This document shows positions 1,442-6,836 of a DNA stretch of 6,970 nt, one piece after another. A model generated the notes under the pieces. The model was given only the letters and a program-made list of their open reading frames with translations. It was not told where the DNA came from and ran no database searches. Source of the stretch: a virus; IMG/VR virus record IMGVR_UViG_3300022745_000015, positions 1 to 6,970 of that record; one strand, given 5' to 3'. The translations under genes were made by a program, and so were the position numbers. Position 1 is the first letter of the stretch, and each line of letters starts with the position of its first letter.

Positions 1442-2253
1442 GCGCGCCCGAGGCTCTGAGCATGGCGAGCGGCTCCGCCGCCGACATGCACAGCGCCGAA
1501 GGCGCGGGGCTTGTCTCATTTAAAACAACTCAGATTTGTGTCAATTTATCCCCCTCCGCGACAGCGGAAAGGCGGGTAAAGCGGCTAAAAAAATCGGTCT
1601 GGGCCTCTGGCCACCTTCACGGCCTTGCTGACAACGGCTTCCGTGCCCCGCAATGCTGGTTCGTCACCCTCACCTATCGCGGCGTCGATGACTGGCAAAA
1701 AAACCATATCAGCAAGTCGCTTGATCTGTTTCGCAAGTGGTGCTACCGCAAGTCGATTCCCTGCCGTTACACCTGGGTTGCAGAGCTGCAAAGTCGCGGC
1801 GCTGTTCACTATCACCTTTTGGTCTGGCTACCACAAGGCGTCCGTATGCCCCAATGGGACCGCAGCTATGGCACAAAGTCCAAGTTCTGGCCTCACGGCA
1901 TGAGTAACACGCAAAAAGCAAAAAGCGGCGTTGGCTACCTCATGAAATATCTGTCCAAGCTGGGCGAGCTGACCCGGTTTCCAAAGGGCCTGAGGCTCTA
2001 CGGCATCGGCGGTCTGACACCACAAGCCCGCGGTGTTCGCTCCTGGCTCAATCTGCCGGAGTGGGTCAAGGCTGATTACGGCGTGGGCGAAGTCGTTAGA
2101 AAAAAAATCGGCCTGCTCGTCAAGGCGACGGGCGAACTATTGGACCCGGCCTATTCGGTCCAGCTCATCCCTCACGGTCTCATCGTTACCCCCCTGCGAA
2201 AAGTCTCGCAGCGCTGGCATGACGGGGCCTATTCGAAAGTGAATTTCGCATGA
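1438..2253 (+). CDS. Rolling-circle replication initiation protein (HUH endonuclease, gene II functional analogue), 271 aa
   Basis: Motif 1 is FVTLTY (1660-1677), the HUH motif HYH is at 1807-1815 (HYHLLVW), and the two-tyrosine motif YLMKYLSK is at 1936-1959. I prefer the ATG at 1438 (ATGA overlap with the upstream stop) over the TTG at 1423 used in the ORF track. Confidence 0.9.
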   Translation: MSAPEALSMASGSAADMHSAEGAGLVSFKTTQICVNLSPSATAERRVKRLKKSVWASGHLHGLADNGFRAPQCWFVTLTYRGVDDWQKNHISKSLDLFRKWCYRKSIPCRYTWVAELQSRGAVHYHLLVWLPQGVRMPQWDRSYGTKSKFWPHGMSNTQKAKSGVGYLMKYLSKLGELTRFPKGLRLYGIGGLTPQARGVRSWLNLPEWVKADYGVGEVVRKKIGLLVKATGELLDPAYSVQLIPHGLIVTPLRKVSQRWHDGAYSKVNFA

Positions 2254-2363
2254 CCGAATTATTTTTGCAGGGCGTTGCGTCCCTCGTTGCTATTGGTGTC
2301 GTCGGTGTCGTCCTGAATATCTGGATGAAGCGGCTAATTGATCGCGTTATTTTTAAGGGGTAA
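2250..2363 (+). CDS. Small hydrophobic protein, 37 aa, g7p/g9p-like minor coat candidate (not in the ORF track)
   Basis: Hand translation gives MTELFLQGVASLVAIGVVGVVLNIWMKRLIDRVIFKG: one hydrophobic helix followed by a basic tail. Its ATG lies in an ATGA overlap with the Rep stop (2250-2253). Its position before the coat gene matches Ff gVII/gIX. Confidence 0.55.
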   Translation: MTELFLQGVASLVAIGVVGVVLNIWMKRLIDRVIFKG

Positions 2364-2367
2364 AAAA

Positions 2368-2673
2368 ATGTCTGCCGTTTCTGATGTTGGTCTGCAAGTC
2401 GCACAAAACCTTTTCACGGTCGTTCAGCCTGCCCTATTGGTCGTCCTGGGCGCGTTCGTTACGTTCGTCGCGGCTGTGTACGGCGTGGTTCACGTCCTGG
2501 CCCTCATCAACGGCAAACCCTCGTCGTCGGTCGCTTACGACATGGGGCGAATTTTCGGCTCCATGGTGTACGAATCCGACTATCGCGATTACCGCGATAA
2601 ACGCGAAGCAAGCGCAGCGCGGCGGGAACGAAACGCCAAATTCTCGCGGCGTTATCGAAGCGAAAAGTATTGA
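2368..2673 (+). CDS. Membrane protein, 101 aa, paralogue of the major coat hydrophobic core with a long charged C-terminal tail
   Basis: ATG at 2368 is preceded by AAGGGG (2355-2360); the TTG at 2338 in the track is less likely. Residues 19-48 match the coat protein helix at 18 of 30 positions by hand alignment. The C-terminus is Arg/Lys/Tyr/Asp-rich. Confidence 0.75.
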   Translation: MSAVSDVGLQVAQNLFTVVQPALLVVLGAFVTFVAAVYGVVHVLALINGKPSSSVAYDMGRIFGSMVYESDYRDYRDKREASAARRERNAKFSRRYRSEKY

Positions 2674-2735: not shown

Positions 2736-2936
2736 ATGAACAAGATCGTTAAATTGGGCGGCGTTGCTGCTCTGGCCCTGGGTGCTGTGTCCTCTTTCGC
2801 AGCTATCGATACCACCGCTGCCACCAGCGGCATTGCTGACGCACAAGCGGCTACCCTGGTTGTTCTCGGCGCTATGGTCACCATGGGTGCTGCCGTGTTC
2901 GGGGTGAAGAAGATTTTGCGCCTGATCGGTCGCTAA
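2736..2936 (+). CDS. gVIII: Major coat protein precursor (g8p-like), 66 aa: 22-aa signal peptide plus 44-aa mature protein
   Basis: ATG at 2736 is preceded by GAAAGG (2724-2729). The signal peptide MNKIVKLGGVAALALGAVSSFA is followed by a mature AIDTT... protein with an acidic N-terminus, a hydrophobic core and a basic KKILRLIGR tail. This is the classic inovirus coat architecture and size. Confidence 0.9.
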   Translation: MNKIVKLGGVAALALGAVSSFAAIDTTAATSGIADAQAATLVVLGAMVTMGAAVFGVKKILRLIGR

Positions 2937-2951
2937 ACCCTCGGGTTGTTC

Positions 2952-2975
2952 GTGTGGCTCCTTGCGGGGCTACAC
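2952..2975 (+). terminator. Stem-loop directly after the coat gene (possible attenuator or terminator)
   Basis: GTGTGGCTCC-TTGC-GGGGCTACAC forms a 10-bp stem including two G-T(U) pairs. Ff phages place a terminator after gVIII. No T-tract follows here, so the call is weak. Confidence 0.35.
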
Positions 2976-2996
2976 CTGCAACCATAGGCATAAAAC

Positions 2997-3578
2997 GTGA
3001 AATCAATCCGGCTCTATCTCCTGGCGTTGTGCGCCCTGCTTTGCTCTCAATCCTGGGCGGTTGTTACCTTCACGACGAACCAGACAAATACAAAAATTGT
3101 CGTTTCCGTGGATAACTCCTGCAATGCAATGATGCTTGCCCTGATGACCTCGCTCAATGTGGTCGCATCCACTAAAGCGCCATTCAAGGCGTATTCGTGC
3201 AGCGATGACCCGGTCCTTCAAACCTCTACGCTAATCCTGAAAGATTCGCTCGCCACACCGACCACGTATTACACAACCTTCACCAGCTGGACCAATGACG
3301 CCACCAAAGCACTCGCCACCTGGCAGGATTCCATTAACACGCAAAACGCGGCCATATCCCTGATGCAAACCAAGGTAGATTCGTTCATCGCGGGTGCGGC
3401 GTCTGCCACTGGCGGCGGTACGTCTGCACAGATAACCGTCAAGGATGCGTTCGGCACCGCGACGCCTGATGAATACGCGGCACTGTCAAAAATGTTCGGC
3501 CTCATCCTGGCGGCGGCTGCTGTCATTTGGGGCGTCAAGCAAATCAAGAATCTGCTTCTCAAGCGTCCTGAGGCTTAA
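2997..3578 (+). CDS. Secreted, C-terminally anchored virion or membrane protein, 193 aa, with a g8p-like C-terminal module
   Basis: A GTG start at 2997 gives a textbook signal peptide (MKSIRLYLLALCALLCSQSWA). The first in-frame ATG would delete it. The C-terminus PDEYAALSKMFGLILAAAAVIWGVKQIKNLLLKRPEA mimics the mature coat protein (acidic, hydrophobic, basic). Confidence 0.75.
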   Translation: MKSIRLYLLALCALLCSQSWAVVTFTTNQTNTKIVVSVDNSCNAMMLALMTSLNVVASTKAPFKAYSCSDDPVLQTSTLILKDSLATPTTYYTTFTSWTNDATKALATWQDSINTQNAAISLMQTKVDSFIAGAASATGGGTSAQITVKDAFGTATPDEYAALSKMFGLILAAAAVIWGVKQIKNLLLKRPEA

Positions 3579-3580
3579 CC

Positions 3581-4966
3581 ATGAGGATAAAAAACGATGT
3601 TCGATCCGTTACTAATGGCCTACGGCCTCGGCCTAGTGTTCCTGCTCTCGCTCTCTTTCCGCTGAGACGTGCGGCGCTTGCGCTTGCCTTGACCCTTGGC
3701 GCGTCCGGGTCCTGGGCTGGATATGCTCAGCTTGCGCCACCTCCTAACTGGGTCGCAAATACGATTAAAGTCGCTGCCAATGATGTGTCATTCGCTGGCG
3801 GTGTTCGGTCGGCGTCTGCTGTCGTTCAGGTCGCGGGGACTGCTGTAACCATGCCTGCGGCCTATCGTTTCGCGGCAAACGCTGGTAGTGTTGCTGCTTC
3901 GGCTGCGTTCGCTAATCCTGGCATTTTTGCGGCTCTTGCTATAGGGTCAACGGCCTATGCTGCTTATCAATGGTTTAAGGATGCGGGGTTCGAAGTACAG
4001 AACAACGTCTGGCAAAAAAAGACCATCACGACTACGTGCGCGGCTGGAACCGAAACTTACGGGACCGGGCAATGTGTGTCCTATCAAAAATTGTGCATCA
4101 CGGGTCAGCGCGGTCCGTTCTCTGACGTCCTCCAGGGTTGTCCCTCTGGCACGTCTGCCGTCATTCATATTCCGGCCAGTGGCACACCTTATTACACGGC
4201 CAAGGACCCGACCGGATACCCGTATAGCTCTAACTTTTACGGTCAAATTACCTCGGGCATCCCTGCCACCAAATACGACCCGGCCACCGAGCAACAAATT
4301 AAAGATGGCATGTCGTTGATTAACGTTCCCGGCAATGTCCCCCAGGTGTTCCCGGTCCCTAACGTTGCCTGGCCCGTTGAATCTCCTATCCTTAACCCGT
4401 CCCCTGCCCCTAGTCCGTCCAACCCTCTGACTGACCCGACGCCCACGCCACAACCAATGCGCGTTCCCCAGGGTGACCCGGTGCCGATCCCAAATACTTC
4501 CCCACAGCAATACAAAACGCCCGTCATCGATATAGTCCCTTCGCCGACTGCTGATTACCCCTGGCGCGTCGATATGCAGCCAAAAGACATAGTTACGACT
4601 AGTCCATCTCCTCTGCTCGTCTCGCCAGTTACCAGCACAACGTCCGGTACTGCTACGCCTACCGCTACAACGTCCACGCAAACCGACTGCGACAAGTACC
4701 CCGACAGCATCGGTTGTGCAAAATTCGGGGACCAGCCGCAGCCCGACAAACTTGTCAAAAATGACGTTCCCTTCACCCTGGCCACTGAGGTTTTCTCGTC
4801 CTCGTCCGGCTGTCCTTCTGATTTGACATTTAGCGTCATTGGTCGTTCATACGCGGTCAGCTACCGCCCGATCTGTGACCGTCTTGCACTCCTTCGCACC
4901 CTGTTTATCTGCATGGCGGGTGTGATGGCTGCTTATATCCTGGCCGATTCTTTCAAGATTCAATAA
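3581..4966 (+). CDS. gIII: Adsorption / minor coat protein (g3p-like), 461 aa
   Basis: It is the largest structural ORF and lies after the coat gene. It has a signal peptide ending at SWA (residue 46), Cys-containing domains, Pro-rich and Thr-rich linkers, and a C-terminal hydrophobic anchor LFICMAGVMAAYILADSF. GAGG lies 7 nt upstream of the ATG. The start is somewhat ambiguous (see findings). Confidence 0.85.
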   Translation: MRIKNDVRSVTNGLRPRPSVPALALFPLRRAALALALTLGASGSWAGYAQLAPPPNWVANTIKVAANDVSFAGGVRSASAVVQVAGTAVTMPAAYRFAANAGSVAASAAFANPGIFAALAIGSTAYAAYQWFKDAGFEVQNNVWQKKTITTTCAAGTETYGTGQCVSYQKLCITGQRGPFSDVLQGCPSGTSAVIHIPASGTPYYTAKDPTGYPYSSNFYGQITSGIPATKYDPATEQQIKDGMSLINVPGNVPQVFPVPNVAWPVESPILNPSPAPSPSNPLTDPTPTPQPMRVPQGDPVPIPNTSPQQYKTPVIDIVPSPTADYPWRVDMQPKDIVTTSPSPLLVSPVTSTTSGTATPTATTSTQTDCDKYPDSIGCAKFGDQPQPDKLVKNDVPFTLATEVFSSSSGCPSDLTFSVIGRSYAVSYRPICDRLALLRTLFICMAGVMAAYILADSFKIQ

Positions 4967-5250
4967 TGGGCACCCTCGCAACTTTTTTAATGAGCATTGC
5001 GGGTCCCCTGGCGTTCAGGGTCCTGACTATGCTTGGCATCGGCACTGTCACATTTACGGGCATAACTGCTGGCCTGCAAACCCTCATGGCCCAGGCCACA
5101 ACCAACTGGGCATCTGTAACGGGTGACGTCTTGCAATTGGCATCCCTGGCTGGCATCCCTCAGTGCCTGGGCATCATCTGCGGCGCGATGACCTCCCGTG
5201 TCGGCATCTGGGCTGCTGTGTCTGCAACTCGTTGGGTTGTCGCAAAATGA
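4966..5250 (+). CDS. Minor coat / membrane protein (g6p-like by position), 94 aa
   Basis: Its start overlaps the g3p stop (TAATG, 4964-4968). The protein has hydrophobic segments and sits between the g3p-like and g1p-like genes, as in Ff gVI. Confidence 0.75.
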   Translation: MGTLATFLMSIAGPLAFRVLTMLGIGTVTFTGITAGLQTLMAQATTNWASVTGDVLQLASLAGIPQCLGIICGAMTSRVGIWAAVSATRWVVAK

Positions 5251-6359
5251 TCTACTTAATTACGGGCGTTCCTGGCTCGGGCAAAACCCTCTACGCGGTT
5301 TCCACGCTTATCCAAAAATTAGCGTCTGAAAAAATCAAGGGCGATGATGGCCAGGACATTGAACGGCGGGTCGTTATTGACGGCATCCCGGATCTGGTTA
5401 TCCCCCATGAAATGATGGCGCCACCGCTCAAAAGCCATGAGGGCAAAACGGACCGGGGTGAGGGTGACGGGTTGTGGAACTGGCACAAGTGGTGCAAACC
5501 CGGTGACGTCCTGGTCGTCGATGAGGTCCAGCGCCATTGGCGTCCGCGTGGTATGTCCACAAAGCCACCCGAAGAAATCACGATGCTGGAAACACACCGA
5601 CACCTCGGGGTTGATTTCATCATCATTACGCAAAATCCAATGCTCATCGATCAGAACGTAAGGCGTCTGGTCGGTCGGCATCAGCATGTGCGGCGCTTGT
5701 TCGGCGGTGCGCGTGCGGCCATCTACGATTGGGACGGCTGCTCTGTCGATGTACATCGGACCGGCACAGCCACCACGACATATTGGGGCTACCCGAAGGA
5801 CGCCTACAAGCTCTACAAGTCCTCGGAGTTGCACACAAAGCAAAAACAAAAAATCCCTATCTGGCTGGTCGTCCCTGTCCTGGGCATCATCGGCGGCATC
5901 TTCCTTGCACCTCAGGCCATGGCGGTCATGACGGGCGCGGCTACTGGCAAAGGTATTTCTAGCAAAAAAGTAGAAGTGCCTCCTCCGGTGCTGCCTGCGC
6001 CAGTGTCGCTACCTCCTGCACCTGCTACACCCGGTCAACAAACTACGCCACCCGTCGCGGGGACCCTGCCACCTGCGCCACTCCCTGGTACTGCATCAGA
6101 TAAGCCAGTAATTGCAGGCTGTATCCGTACGGCCACCCGCTGCGGCTGCGTCGATGAAAAAGGCGTTGCCGTGGACGTCGAGGAAAAAATTTGTCACTCC
6201 CTGGCCCCATCAGGCACAAAGGTGGTTGATCTGGGACCAGATACGCCCATTAGCCCTGAATCTCGATTTGCGTTTGAAATGGGCCAAATGGCCAGAACTG
6301 CCGGACCCTCTGCGCCTCCCGCCACTGAAAAACCACGGGGACCCGCTCGGAGCGATTAG
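5247..6359 (+). CDS. Assembly ATPase, Zot / g1p family, 370 aa
   Basis: ATG at 5247 lies in an ATGA overlap with the upstream stop; the GTG at 5163 in the track is rejected. Walker A GVPGSGKT is at 5265-5288 and Walker B-like is VLVVDEVQ. A single TM helix IPIWLVVPVLGIIGGIFLA is followed by a Pro-rich, Cys-containing periplasmic tail. Confidence 0.92.
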   Translation: MIYLITGVPGSGKTLYAVSTLIQKLASEKIKGDDGQDIERRVVIDGIPDLVIPHEMMAPPLKSHEGKTDRGEGDGLWNWHKWCKPGDVLVVDEVQRHWRPRGMSTKPPEEITMLETHRHLGVDFIIITQNPMLIDQNVRRLVGRHQHVRRLFGGARAAIYDWDGCSVDVHRTGTATTTYWGYPKDAYKLYKSSELHTKQKQKIPIWLVVPVLGIIGGIFLAPQAMAVMTGAATGKGISSKKVEVPPPVLPAPVSLPPAPATPGQQTTPPVAGTLPPAPLPGTASDKPVIAGCIRTATRCGCVDEKGVAVDVEEKICHSLAPSGTKVVDLGPDTPISPESRFAFEMGQMARTAGPSAPPATEKPRGPARSD

Positions 6360-6408: not shown

Positions 6409-6807
6409 TCAGCATAGGCATTGCCTATCGAAACGGGCAGGGCTATATATACCATCTATACATCGTATAAAGTAGGAAACCGCCTCACTAGCGGTAGCCG
6501 AACACGAAACGGCGGCCGCGCCAGTCGCTACCAAGGCTTTTTTTAGTGCTTCGCGCAGGCGCTTTCCTTTCTCGGTCCCTTCGTACTGCGCGGCCACGGC
6601 TCGGCACGTCCACACGGTCGGCTCCATCCCGGCAATCTCGGCCATTAGTGCTACGTCACCCGCTGGACATGGCTTTCGTCCGTGTCTCCAGTCGCTAACG
6701 GCTGATCTTCCGACCTCTAGGCGCTTTGCCAATTTGTTGTCGTTTCCTGCCTCTTTACTGGCCAGGTCGATCAATTCAATTAAAAAATTATTTTCGGGCT
6801 TGTGCAT
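6409..6807 (-). CDS. HTH DNA-binding protein, putative phage repressor / immunity regulator, 132 aa
   Basis: ATG at 6807 is preceded by a strong AAGGAG (complement of 6814-6819). The Cro/XRE-like helix-turn-helix reads NKLAKRLEVGRSAVSDWRHGRKP. It is the only gene on the - strand and is divergent from the structural and replication operon. Confidence 0.85.
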   Translation of the reverse strand: MHKPENNFLIELIDLASKEAGNDNKLAKRLEVGRSAVSDWRHGRKPCPAGDVALMAEIAGMEPTVWTCRAVAAQYEGTEKGKRLREALKKALVATGAAAVSCSATASEAVSYFIRCIDGIYSPARFDRQCLC

Positions 6808-6836
6808 TTGTGCTCCTTTCGAGTACATTACGCGCC

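What the first reader, a model, noticed from the sequence alone, without database searches (positions are those of the whole stretch)
2997..3578. Natural display-like protein: a signal peptide and ~125-aa ectodomain fused to a g8p-like C-terminal module
The last ~40 residues (TPDEYAALSKMFGLILAAAAVIWGVKQIKNLLLKRPEA) reproduce the acidic, hydrophobic, basic layout of the mature coat protein. They also share the AAV.(F/W)GVK.I core with it (8 of 17 positions with one gap, by hand). Upstream lies a Thr/Ser-rich ectodomain with two Cys residues that I cannot assign to any family. The gene lies between gVIII and the g3p-like gene, where Ff phages have nothing. It might insert into the capsid lattice or the tip as a decorated coat subunit, giving a second host-interaction or shielding protein.
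Basis: partly seen in the sequence, partly recalled or inferred. Interest (0 to 1): 0.65.

Follow-up and report, generated by a model that had tools for sequence, protein, structure and literature searches.

The report
Coat-protein-derived minor protein of inovirus
This filamentous-phage gene encodes a secreted ~120-residue domain tethered to a helix that is a diverged copy of the phage's own major coat protein. It belongs to a conserved, unstudied family found just before the adsorption gene, and is most likely a minor capsid (tip) protein, not a new kind of system.

Summary
ORF 2997-3578 (193 aa) is a real gene under purifying selection (dN/dS 0.07-0.15). It has a signal peptide, a ~124-aa Thr/Ser-rich two-Cys ectodomain with no detectable relatives by sequence or fold, a flexible linker and a 48-aa C-terminal module.

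The module resembles the clade's major coat protein g8p in register and beyond composition. Profile-profile comparison gives 94.9% probability (E 4e-8), and 0-1 of 3000 segment-preserving shuffles reach the real score.

The protein is not a one-off. It is an enlarged member of a family (about 57 cluster representatives) whose minimal form is 58-65 aa and lacks a signal peptide. In every locus examined the order is g8p, hairpin or terminator, this gene, a conserved 22-aa hydrophobic peptide gene (window 3597-3665, overlapping g3p), g3p-like, g6p, Zot.

The same cassette layout occurs in Ralstonia phage RSS1 (ORF5/ORF6) and in Neisseria-type phages. In NgoΦ6, Orf5 has been reported in virions.

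My best reading is a low-copy capsid protein whose g8p-like helix takes a coat-like position at one filament end, paired with the 22-mer as pIX pairs with pVII in Ff, so that its N-terminal domain is displayed. This is inferred and no virion data exist. A role in host range is not supported.

The parts
2736..2936 (+). g8p, the major coat protein (66 aa; signal peptide plus a 44-aa mature helix). It is the reference for the similarity.
   Evidence: Pfam Phage_Coat_B, E 5.2e-5, 23.6 bits. PHROG 1859. Orthologues in all related loci.
2939..2988 (+). Stable RNA hairpin directly after the g8p stop codon (core stem 2952-2975, UUGC loop) with no T-run. It probably acts as an attenuator or mRNA-stability element separating g8p from the downstream minor-protein genes.
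   Evidence: MFE -31 kcal/mol, z -3.4. Hairpins at the same place in L005 and L001, and canonical hairpin + T-run terminators in L007 and L008. The consensus terminator scan did not call it.
2997..3059 (+). Signal peptide of ORF193 (residues 1-21, GTG start, cleavage predicted after SWA).
   Evidence: Read from the sequence. Aligned signal peptides in long family members. One or no amino-acid changes against L012 and L013.
3060..3431 (+). Ectodomain plus linker (residues 22-145). It comprises a small alpha-beta-beta-beta domain holding the C42/C68 pair, a long helix 109-135, and a flexible Gly/Ser/Ala linker of about residues 136-145.
   Evidence: AF2 model, mean pLDDT 72. No Foldseek match in PDB or BFVD with E<0.07. 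The DxSC...CSxDPV motif is shared by 16 homologues. dN/dS 0.02-0.19.
3432..3578 (+). g8p-like C-terminal module (residues 146-193: ITVKDAFGTATPDEY - TM - WGVKQIKNLLLKRPEA) plus the stop codon. This is the conserved core of the family.
   Evidence: family. (similarity to g8p). AF2 helix 157-189 with pLDDT about 90.
3597..3665 (+). Conserved 22-aa hydrophobic peptide gene (MFDPLLMAYGLGLVFLLSLSFR), overlapping the 5' end of the g3p-like gene in another frame. It is a pVII-like candidate partner of ORF193.
   Evidence: Present directly after the module gene in 15 of 15 loci, and free-standing in L005, L006 and L018. Among the window, L012 and L013, 26 of 27 substitutions are synonymous in its frame and 25 of 25 are nonsynonymous in the g3p frame. 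Analogous peptides exist in RSS1 (ORF6) and the Dulem viruses.
3581..4966 (+). g3p-like adsorption protein with a TspB-type C-terminal domain. Its ATG lies 2 nt after the ORF193 stop codon.
   Evidence: Pfam Neisseria_TspB. NCBIfam VF_TspB_C_term, 1.2e-10. N-terminal and central domains are swapped in L012 and L013.
4966..5250 (+). g6p-like minor coat protein (DUF2523).
   Evidence: Pfam DUF2523, 1.6e-17. PHROG 1242.
5247..6359 (+). g1p/Zot assembly ATPase.
   Evidence: Pfam Zot, 1.8e-22. PHROG 197, 4.6e-69.
2368..2673 (+). A second g8p paralogue (101 aa). Its N-terminal half is a g8p-like helix without a signal peptide, followed by a ~50-aa Arg/Tyr/Lys-rich C-terminal extension. It is an accessory gene, absent from L012.
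   Evidence: BLASTP against g8p: 18 of 29 identical, E 3e-8. hhalign 95.1%. A homologue lies between g8p and the module gene in L001.

Best explanation
ORF193 is an enlarged member of a conserved family of coat-protein-derived minor structural proteins of non-Ff inoviruses.

Proposed mechanism; every step is inferred unless marked as shown:
1. The gene is transcribed at a low level, behind the hairpin that follows g8p, and is translated together with the g3p gene.
2. The protein is exported by Sec and its signal peptide is cut after residue 21. It then sits in the inner membrane N-out/C-in, like g8p.
3. During extrusion its 48-residue g8p-like helix takes a g8p-type position in the capsid. It does so in a few copies at one end of the filament, not along the shaft.
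4. It probably partners with the conserved 22-aa hydrophobic peptide encoded immediately downstream. In Ff, pIX alternates with pVIII around a pVII core in the same way.
5. The disulfide-bonded ~120-aa ectodomain, on a flexible linker, is thereby displayed outside the particle.

Shown: the gene is real and under selection; the helix is specifically g8p-like; the family and its gene order are conserved; the 22-aa gene is real. Inferred: topology, virion incorporation, copy number and which end.
For: - Gene under purifying selection.
- Module similar to g8p, in register and above composition.
- About 57 family cluster representatives have a constant module and variable N-termini.
- The order g8p, module gene, 22-mer, g3p-like, DUF2523, Zot is invariant in all loci examined, including prophages in Burkholderiaceae, Polaromonas and Hylemonella MAGs. 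This is the behaviour of a core morphogenesis gene.
- That set gives five membrane/structural proteins, the same number as Ff. Minimal genomes such as L005 show no other small hydrophobic ORF that could play the pVII/pIX role.
- N-out topology is supported by acidic residues before the TM and basic residues after it. An even number of Cys occurs in 47 of 56 N-tails. Signal peptides occur only where the N-tail is at least 100 aa.
- A hairpin or terminator follows g8p, the start codon is GTG, and the gap or overlap with the next genes is 2-4 nt. These point to low abundance and co-expression with g3p.
- The tail is less basic than that of g8p (family mean net +1.5 against +4). A Glu near the C-terminus is invariant or nearly so. 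The 22-mer has an invariant Asp3 and a terminal Arg or Lys.
- In f1, pIX Glu29 forms a salt bridge with pVII Arg33, and pIX alternates with pVIII in the first layer with its N-terminus exposed (PMC10175506). An acidic N-terminus and a terminal Arg are described as pVII hallmarks (bioRxiv 10.1101/2023.12.30.573655).
- Across 9 lineages the C-terminus of the positional analogue is closer to its own g8p than to foreign ones (permutation p about 0.003).
- NgoΦ6 Orf5, which has the same position and is followed by a 2.6-kDa Orf12, was reported in the filament and modelled as coat-like at its C-end (PMC7561177).
Against: - There are no virion, expression or topology data for any member of this family.
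- No sequence similarity to f1 pIX, pVII or the g3p C-terminus was found.
- Homology to the Neisseria/RSS Orf5 family is not demonstrated (hhalign 9%).
- The gene lies next to g3p/g6p, not before g8p where Ff keeps gVII/gIX. It could therefore belong to the other tip.
- The window also has a 37-aa hydrophobic ORF (2250-2363) at the canonical gVII/gIX position.
- Many family members have 60-100-aa N-tails without a signal peptide, which is awkward for N-out insertion.
- Similarity to g8p could reflect shared membrane or assembly-machine contacts rather than co-assembly in the particle.
Confidence: 0.55

Rival explanations
1. Adapter or co-receptor at the g3p/g6p (terminating, infecting) end. 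The g8p-like helix bridges the coat lattice to the g3p/g6p bundle, and the ectodomain sits beside g3p.
For: The gene is immediately upstream of g3p-g6p and translationally coupled to them, behind the post-g8p hairpin. Its position is the same in every locus.
Against: The ectodomain does not co-vary with the swapped g3p receptor domains in L012 and L013. Minimal members have only about 20 exposed residues. This reading would leave these phages with no candidate for the initiating cap except the 22-mer.
Confidence: 0.2
2. Sparse decoration of the shaft. Occasional copies replace g8p anywhere in the lattice, as in engineered hybrid pVIII display, giving a shielding or adhesive coat.
For: The helix is g8p-like over the whole packing and DNA-facing segment. 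Its size equals that of mature g8p (48 against 44 aa). In the window's own copy the tail keeps four K/R.
Against: At family level the tail is much less basic than g8p and carries a conserved C-terminal Glu that would face the DNA. The low-expression context applies here too. The conserved pairing with the 22-mer is not explained.
Confidence: 0.1
3. Not a virion component. It would be an inner-membrane periplasmic protein that uses a g8p-like helix to contact g8p or g1p in the membrane. Possible roles are assembly chaperone or regulator, or superinfection exclusion.
For: No virion data exist. g8p-like helices could mediate lateral contacts in the membrane. The window holds another g8p-like paralogue with a cytoplasmic basic tail, so the helix is reused in different contexts.
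Against: The gene is universally retained inside the structural module in free phage contigs and prophages, unlike typical accessory or exclusion genes. No PADLOC match. There is precedent for NgoΦ6 Orf5 in particles.
Confidence: 0.12
4. The resemblance to g8p is only the generic composition of a single-pass anchor (acidic, hydrophobic, basic), and the gene is an unrelated membrane protein.
For: BLASTP finds no alignment. Pfam Phage_Coat_B does not hit the module. A PDB profile search finds no coat protein.
Against: Segment-preserving shuffles and reversed sequences fail to reach the real scores. Other TM proteins of the same phage do not score. hhalign gives 94.9%. A cognate-specific signal appears across lineages.
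Confidence: 0.03

Closest known systems
Orf5 of Neisseria filamentous phages (NgoΦ6 Orf5, MDAΦ orf5), with the 2.6-kDa Orf12 that follows it
   Same: It is encoded directly after the major coat gene and before a tiny hydrophobic ORF and the TspB-type adsorption gene. It has an N-terminal Cys-containing domain and a C-terminal TM helix with a short charged tail. For NgoΦ6 it was modelled as coat-like at the C-end, reported in the filament, and called an accessory structural protein (PMC7561177). MDAΦ orf3-orf7 are assigned to morphogenesis (PMC5526601).
   Different: Sequence homology is not demonstrable (hhalign 9%). The only hint is the N-terminus of P0010 (58%). The Neisseria-type proteins are about 100 aa, lack a signal peptide and carry a different N-domain (MGYxVGxxCY...). 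ORF193 has a signal peptide, a different 2-Cys domain and a much clearer g8p-like module.
Ralstonia phage RSS1 ORF5 (phrog_12382, unknown function) and ORF6 (26 aa)
   Same: The same cassette in a cultured betaproteobacterial inovirus: mcp, then ORF5 (111 aa, C-terminal TM, no signal peptide), then ORF6 (MLAIDFWLWAGFLLPVLPAVIIFRGL), then g3p, g6p and Zot.
   Different: ORF193 does not match phrog_12382. The C-terminus of RSS1 ORF5 is not detectably like its own coat protein.
Ff (f1/M13/fd) pIX with pVII, the round-tip cap
   Same: The logic of the proposed mechanism is the same: a single helix occupies coat-like positions alternating with pVIII around a core of a smaller hydrophobic helix. Other shared features are an exposed N-terminus that tolerates fusions, a near-C-terminal Glu, a partner with an acidic N-terminus and terminal Arg, and adjacent coupled genes (PMC10175506).
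   Different: pIX is 32 aa and is encoded upstream of gVIII. ORF193 is 193 aa with a signal peptide and lies downstream of g8p.
Major coat protein g8p (Pfam PF05356 Phage_Coat_B) and engineered pVIII/pIX display fusions
   Same: The module equals a mature g8p in length and in helix register, and shares the (W/F/Y)G(V)K...L..L motif. The layout of signal peptide, passenger domain, flexible linker and coat helix is that of a display construct.
   Different: It is below the Pfam threshold. The tail is less basic and ends in a conserved Glu. It has its own conserved pre-helix motif, TVKDAFGTATP. It sits in a low-expression context.

Membership tests
Inovirus major coat protein g8p (Pfam PF05356 Phage_Coat_B) | Match to the curated family model at or above its cut-off | tested here: not met
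   No Coat_B hit for the whole protein (E<=0.1) or for the isolated module (E<=10). The window's true g8p scores 23.6 bits against a cut-off of 23.5.
Inovirus major coat protein g8p (Pfam PF05356 Phage_Coat_B) | Helix homologous to coat proteins of the same phage clade | tested here: met
   hhalign 94.9%, E 4.4e-8. HMM 12-19 bits. 0-1 of 3000 segment shuffles reach the real score. Reciprocal test: 55 of 57 members at p<1e-3.
Inovirus major coat protein g8p (Pfam PF05356 Phage_Coat_B) | Small mature protein (about 44-50 aa) that begins right after the signal peptide | tested here: not met
   A 124-aa ectodomain plus linker precedes the helix.
Inovirus major coat protein g8p (Pfam PF05356 Phage_Coat_B) | Strongly basic C-terminal tail that lines the DNA, with no acidic end | tested here: not met
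   The mean net charge of the family tail is +1.5 against +4 for g8p. A Glu two residues from the end is invariant or nearly so.
Inovirus major coat protein g8p (Pfam PF05356 Phage_Coat_B) | Thousands of copies per virion | not testable with these tools
   Only indirect evidence: a hairpin or terminator between g8p and this gene, and a GTG start.
Orf5-type accessory structural protein of Nf/RSS-type inoviruses (NgoΦ6 Orf5; RSS1 ORF5 = phrog_12382) | Encoded between the major coat gene and a tiny hydrophobic ORF plus the adsorption gene | tested here: met
   Window gene order. Same order in RSS1, Dulem 50/54/61 and human-saliva inoviruses.
Orf5-type accessory structural protein of Nf/RSS-type inoviruses (NgoΦ6 Orf5; RSS1 ORF5 = phrog_12382) | N-terminal Cys-pair domain plus a single C-terminal TM helix with a short charged tail | tested here: met
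   Compare the sequences.
Orf5-type accessory structural protein of Nf/RSS-type inoviruses (NgoΦ6 Orf5; RSS1 ORF5 = phrog_12382) | Sequence homology to the family | tested here: inconclusive
   No PHROG hit. A2 against A7: hhalign 9%, p 0.0036. Dulem 61 Orf5-like scores 11.4 bits on the module HMM. N-terminus of P0010 against A7: 58%.
Orf5-type accessory structural protein of Nf/RSS-type inoviruses (NgoΦ6 Orf5; RSS1 ORF5 = phrog_12382) | Presence in purified virions | not testable with these tools
   Reported only for NgoΦ6 (PMC7561177).
Ff pIX (g9p) minor coat protein | Sequence similarity to pIX | tested here: not met
No PDB hit.
Ff pIX (g9p) minor coat protein | About 30-aa protein without a signal peptide, encoded upstream of gVIII | tested here: not met
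   ORF193 is 193 aa, has a signal peptide and lies downstream of g8p. Minimal relatives are 58-65 aa without a signal peptide.
Ff pIX (g9p) minor coat protein | Paired and coupled with a pVII-like peptide (acidic N-terminus, hydrophobic, terminal Arg), and a near-C-terminal acidic residue | tested here: met
   The 22-mer is present in 15 of 15 loci, with invariant D3 and terminal R/K. The module Glu is conserved. The f1 features are taken from PMC10175506 and the preprint.
Ff pIX (g9p) minor coat protein | Location at the first-emerging tip, alternating with pVIII | not testable with these tools
   Needs cryo-EM or immunogold labelling.
g3p / TspB-type adsorption protein | C-terminal assembly domain of the g3p/TspB type | tested here: not met
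   The neighbouring gene carries it (NF041109, 1.2e-10), and ORF193 has no such hit. Module HMM against the fd g3p C-terminus: p 0.009, 1.9 bits.

The most novel reading that the evidence does not exclude
This family and the 22-aa peptide together would be the 'missing' pIX/pVII-type initiating cap of the many integrative, non-Ff inoviruses that lack recognisable gVII/gIX. The cap subunit would have arisen by duplication of the coat gene. It would then have been used repeatedly by nature as a display scaffold, acquiring signal peptides and folded ectodomains. Some filaments would then carry a second, functional (adhesive or shielding) domain at the end opposite g3p.
Probability: 0.28. Interest if true: 0.7.

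Novelty: new variant of a known kind. Interest (0 to 1): 0.5.

Why it matters
How integrative filamentous phages start assembly without recognisable pVII/pIX is an explicitly open question (bioRxiv 10.1101/2023.12.30.573655).

This analysis gives a concrete, testable pair of candidates: a coat-derived helix protein and a conserved 22-aa peptide. The pair is conserved from Comamonadaceae phages to RSS1 and Neisseria-type phages.

It also shows that coat-gene duplication is a recurrent source of inovirus membrane proteins, since this one genome holds three g8p-like helices.

It suggests a natural N-terminal display scaffold that tolerates domains from 20 to about 150 residues. That could be of use for engineering non-Ff phages of plant and human pathogens.

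It also flags an unannotated overlapping gene, which gene callers miss, in a widespread phage group.

Tried and rejected
Searches that found nothing:
- Megablast of the whole window against GenBank phages: no match.
- tblastn of ORF193, P0010 and a minimal member against the phage collection: nothing usable. No deposited phage carries this family.
- Pfam, PHROG, NCBIfam and PADLOC on ORF193 and on its two halves: nothing. The GalE hit of 19 bits against a cut-off of 394 is spurious.
- PDB sequence searches with the module profile, the full-length profile and the 22-mer profile: no coat or tip protein.
- Foldseek of the AF2 model against PDB and BFVD: best E 0.87 and 0.07, with no meaningful fold match. 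The model is only moderately confident (pLDDT 72, 16-sequence alignment).

Ideas rejected:
- The family C-terminus (...NLLRNRPES) might be homologous to the fd g3p C-terminus (...ANILRNKES, recalled from memory). The HMM score was only 1.9 bits.
- The gene might be a recent duplicate of g8p. Identity is only about 30%, and the module is conserved across phages as its own family.
- The hairpin after g8p might be a canonical terminator in the window. It has no T-run and the scan did not call it, although relatives do have canonical ones.

Search limitations:
- The search for related loci with the broad module alignment failed for lack of a conserved stretch.
- The first genome scan found nothing.
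Full report
**Context**

The window is a complete circular inovirus genome, assembled as a 6984-nt metagenomic contig. Genes on the + strand:
- g5p ssDNA-binding protein, 67-357
- Rep, 1423-2253
- a 37-aa hydrophobic ORF, 2250-2363
- a 101-aa TM protein, 2368-2673
- g8p, 2736-2936 (Pfam Phage_Coat_B)
- ORF193, 2997-3578
- a g3p-like protein with a TspB C-terminal domain, 3581-4966
- g6p (DUF2523), 4966-5250
- Zot/g1p, 5247-6359

A repressor lies on the - strand, 6409-6828. No GenBank phage is similar at DNA level. The nearest Zot proteins belong to Dulem viruses, Ralstonia RSS-type phages, Pf3 and Xanthomonas phages.

**Observation check**

The ORF is exactly as described. It is a real gene. 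Two IMG/VR relatives (L012, L013) carry 94-98% identical copies, with dN/dS of 0.07-0.15 overall. The module gives 0.04-0.13 and the ectodomain 0.02-0.19.

The ectodomain (residues 22-145) is 29% Thr+Ser and has Cys42 and Cys68. It has no Pfam, PHROG, NCBIfam or PADLOC family.

An AF2 model (mean pLDDT 72) shows four elements:
- a small alpha-beta-beta-beta domain, residues 42-94
- a long helix, residues 109-135
- a low-confidence Gly/Ser/Ala linker
- a confident 33-residue C-terminal helix, residues 157-189

Foldseek finds no credible match in PDB or BFVD.

**Is the C-terminus really g8p-like?**

Pairwise BLASTP says no. Smith-Waterman scores 46. Four of 2000 global shuffles and 15 of 2000 segment-preserving shuffles reach that score.

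The family-level tests are decisive:
- An HMM of the 48-residue module from 34 homologues (A2) scores 12-19 bits on the g8p proteins of this clade. Per-comparison p values are 5e-8 to 6e-6. The alignment is in register with the last 30 residues of g8p.
- Reversed sequences score about 0. Only 0-1 of 3000 shuffles per g8p reach the real score, even though those shuffles preserve the amphipathic, TM and basic segments.
- hhalign of the module profile against a profile of six clade g8p proteins gives 94.9% probability and E 4.4e-8, with columns 13-45 aligned to 13-45.
- Reciprocally, the g8p HMM hits 55 of 57 family members at p<1e-3, and 91% lie above the 99th percentile of their shuffles.

The module is therefore equivalent to a whole mature g8p (48 against 44 residues). 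It is not just a generic anchor.

It also has features of its own. These are the motif TVKDAFGTATP(D/E)xY before the helix, an invariant Trp, a less basic tail (family mean net +1.5 against +4 for g8p), and a Glu two residues from the end that is invariant or nearly so.

**The family**

An exhaustive phmmer search found 37 cluster representatives. A profile search added about 20 more. All share the module, and the N-termini vary widely.

The minimal form is 58-65 aa, for example MGTTVSCPTSTCTLVISPYVATADDY...IWGAKQILNLLRNRPEA. It has a 20-residue N-tail with a two-Cys loop and no signal peptide. Sixteen representatives share ORF193's DxSC...CSxDPV domain.

Signal-peptide-like N-termini occur only when the N-tail is at least 100 residues: 10 of the 16 such proteins, and none of the 40 shorter ones. 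The N-tail holds an even number of Cys in 47 of 56 proteins. Together with the acidic-TM-basic charge layout, this argues for an N-out/C-in topology like that of g8p.

None of these proteins has a name, a Pfam domain or a PHROG, and no deposited phage genome contains one. Hosts, where visible, are Burkholderiales: a Burkholderiaceae MAG prophage, and Polaromonas and Hylemonella MAGs.

**Genomic context**

Every locus examined has the same order: g8p, module gene, g3p-like, DUF2523 g6p, Zot.

A strong hairpin follows the g8p stop codon in the window (-31 kcal/mol, z -3.4, no T-run). Relatives have hairpins or canonical hairpin + T-run terminators at the same place. From general knowledge, Ff also has a terminator after gene VIII. 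ORF193 starts with GTG, and its stop codon lies 2 nt before the g3p ATG. The gene therefore belongs to the low-expression g3p/g6p/g1p unit.

**A hidden partner gene**

A 22-23-aa hydrophobic ORF lies directly after the module gene in all 15 loci checked. Its consensus is MFD(P/I)xLLxYxFGLxFLLWLLF(R/K).
- In the window it is 3597-3665 and overlaps the g3p 5' end in another frame.
- In L005, L006 and L018 it stands alone, and its stop codon overlaps the g3p ATG.
- Among the window, L012 and L013, 26 of 27 substitutions are synonymous in the 22-aa frame. All 25 scored in the g3p frame change the amino acid.

It is therefore a real gene that gene callers miss.

**Comparison with known phages**

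The cassette has the same layout elsewhere: a C-terminally anchored protein followed by a 22-29-aa hydrophobic peptide.
- In Ralstonia phage RSS1 it is ORF5 (111 aa) plus ORF6 (26 aa).
- It also occurs in Dulem viruses 61, 54 and 50 and in human-saliva inoviruses.
- Those Orf5-like proteins form a family that is widespread in Neisseria genomes and is unnamed. RSS1 ORF5 is phrog_12382, of unknown function.

For N. gonorrhoeae NgoΦ6 the literature lists Orf4 (the coat protein), Orf5 (10.5 kDa), Orf12 (2.6 kDa), Orf6 and Orf7. It reports coat-like modelling of the Orf5 C-end and its presence in the filament, and calls it an accessory structural protein (PMC7561177). MDAΦ orf3-orf7 are assigned to morphogenesis (PMC5526601).

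Direct homology between ORF193's family and this Orf5 family is not shown:
- hhalign of the two profiles gives 9%.
- Dulem 61 Orf5-like scores 11.4 bits on the module HMM.
- P0010 joins an Orf5-like N-terminus to the module (58%).
- One Orf5-like protein has a sub-threshold Pfam Coat_B hit at its C-terminus.

Across nine lineages, the C-terminus of the positional analogue is more similar to its own g8p than to foreign g8p proteins (permutation p about 0.003, driven by four lineages).

**Mechanism**

In f1, pIX helices alternate with pVIII around a pVII bundle in the first layer of the round tip. Their N-termini point outward, which is why display works on them. pIX Glu29 forms a salt bridge with pVII Arg33 (PMC10175506). 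An acidic N-terminus and a terminal Arg are described as pVII hallmarks, and many integrative inoviruses are said to lack pIX.

The clade studied here has exactly five conserved membrane or structural proteins: g8p, the module protein, the 22-mer, g3p-like and g6p. Minimal genomes show no other small hydrophobic ORF.

I therefore propose that the module protein takes g8p-type positions at one end of the filament together with the 22-mer, exposing its N-terminal domain. ORF193 would be a version in which that N-terminus has grown into a Sec-exported, disulfide-bonded domain on a flexible linker.

Which end it occupies is open. Its neighbourhood with g3p/g6p and the window's extra 37-aa ORF at the canonical gVII/gIX site argue for the g3p end. 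Component counting and the Glu/Arg parallel argue for the initiating end.

Shaft decoration is less likely because of the conserved acidic C-terminus and the low-expression context. A purely membrane role cannot be excluded.

A host-range role is not supported. L012 and L013 have swapped g3p receptor domains next to an almost unchanged ORF193.

**Verdict**

The gene is a new, enlarged variant of a known but poorly studied kind: the Orf5-type accessory structural protein of non-Ff inoviruses. Its derivation from the coat protein is shown here more clearly than before. Everything about its location and function in the virion is inference.

Noticed in passing
window 3597-3665 (+); also L005 about 3318-3386, L008 8184-8252, L007 8206-8274, L001 4289-4357, L015 3414-3485: An unannotated, conserved 22-23-aa hydrophobic peptide gene (MFDPLLMAYGLGLVFLLSLSFR) follows the module gene in 15 of 15 loci. 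In the window it overlaps the g3p 5' end out of frame. Of 27 substitutions among close relatives, 26 are synonymous in its frame, and all 25 scored in the g3p frame are nonsynonymous. It has pVII-like features: an acidic N-terminus and a terminal Arg or Lys.
   Followed up: yes
window 2368-2673 (+): A second coat-protein paralogue. Residues 20-48 of this 101-aa protein are 62% identical to g8p residues 37-65 (BLASTP 3e-8; hhalign 95%). It has no signal peptide and carries a ~50-aa Arg/Tyr/Lys-rich C-terminal extension. It is absent from the close relative L012. In L001 a homologue lies between g8p and the module gene. A similar TM plus Arg/Tyr-rich ORF exists in L021 (5399-5626).
   Followed up: partly
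window 2939-2988 (+): A strong RNA hairpin lies right after the g8p stop codon (-31 kcal/mol, z -3.4) without a T-run. Relatives have hairpins, or canonical terminators (L007, L008), at the same position. It is probably an expression boundary between the major and minor coat genes.
   Followed up: partly
L012 2993-4441 and L013 789-2144, compared with window 3581-4966: Phages whose ORF193 copy is 94-98% identical carry g3p-like genes with entirely different N-terminal and central domains. The first ~15 residues and the last ~100 residues are the same. This is modular swapping of the presumed receptor-binding part.
   Followed up: partly
window 2250-2363 (+): A 37-aa hydrophobic ORF (MTELFLQGVASLVAIGVVGVVLNIWMKRLIDRVIFKG) overlaps the Rep stop codon, at the position where Ff has gVII/gIX. 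It is conserved in L012 (35 aa) but not seen in other clade members (L005, L007, L008).
   Followed up: partly
family proteins P0002, P0010, P0020, P0021, P0027, P0029 and others: Many family members have Cys-rich N-terminal tails of 60-100 residues but no recognisable signal peptide. How such tails would cross the membrane is unclear. Some may be mis-called starts.
   Followed up: no
L001 5604-5675 (+): A 23-aa hydrophobic ORF (MIALVSILGVFLVVFITTRPNKS) with an AAGG Shine-Dalgarno motif lies between the g3p-like and g6p genes of the Logan contig. It was not checked in other loci.
   Followed up: no
L008 and L009 (JGI contigs), L007, L019, L020: Relatives are integrated prophages in Burkholderiales genomes. 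In L008 and L009 they lie next to pilMNOPQ and a PBP1-type gene. Some carry a resolvase-family recombinase (L007, L009). The window itself encodes no recombinase.
   Followed up: no
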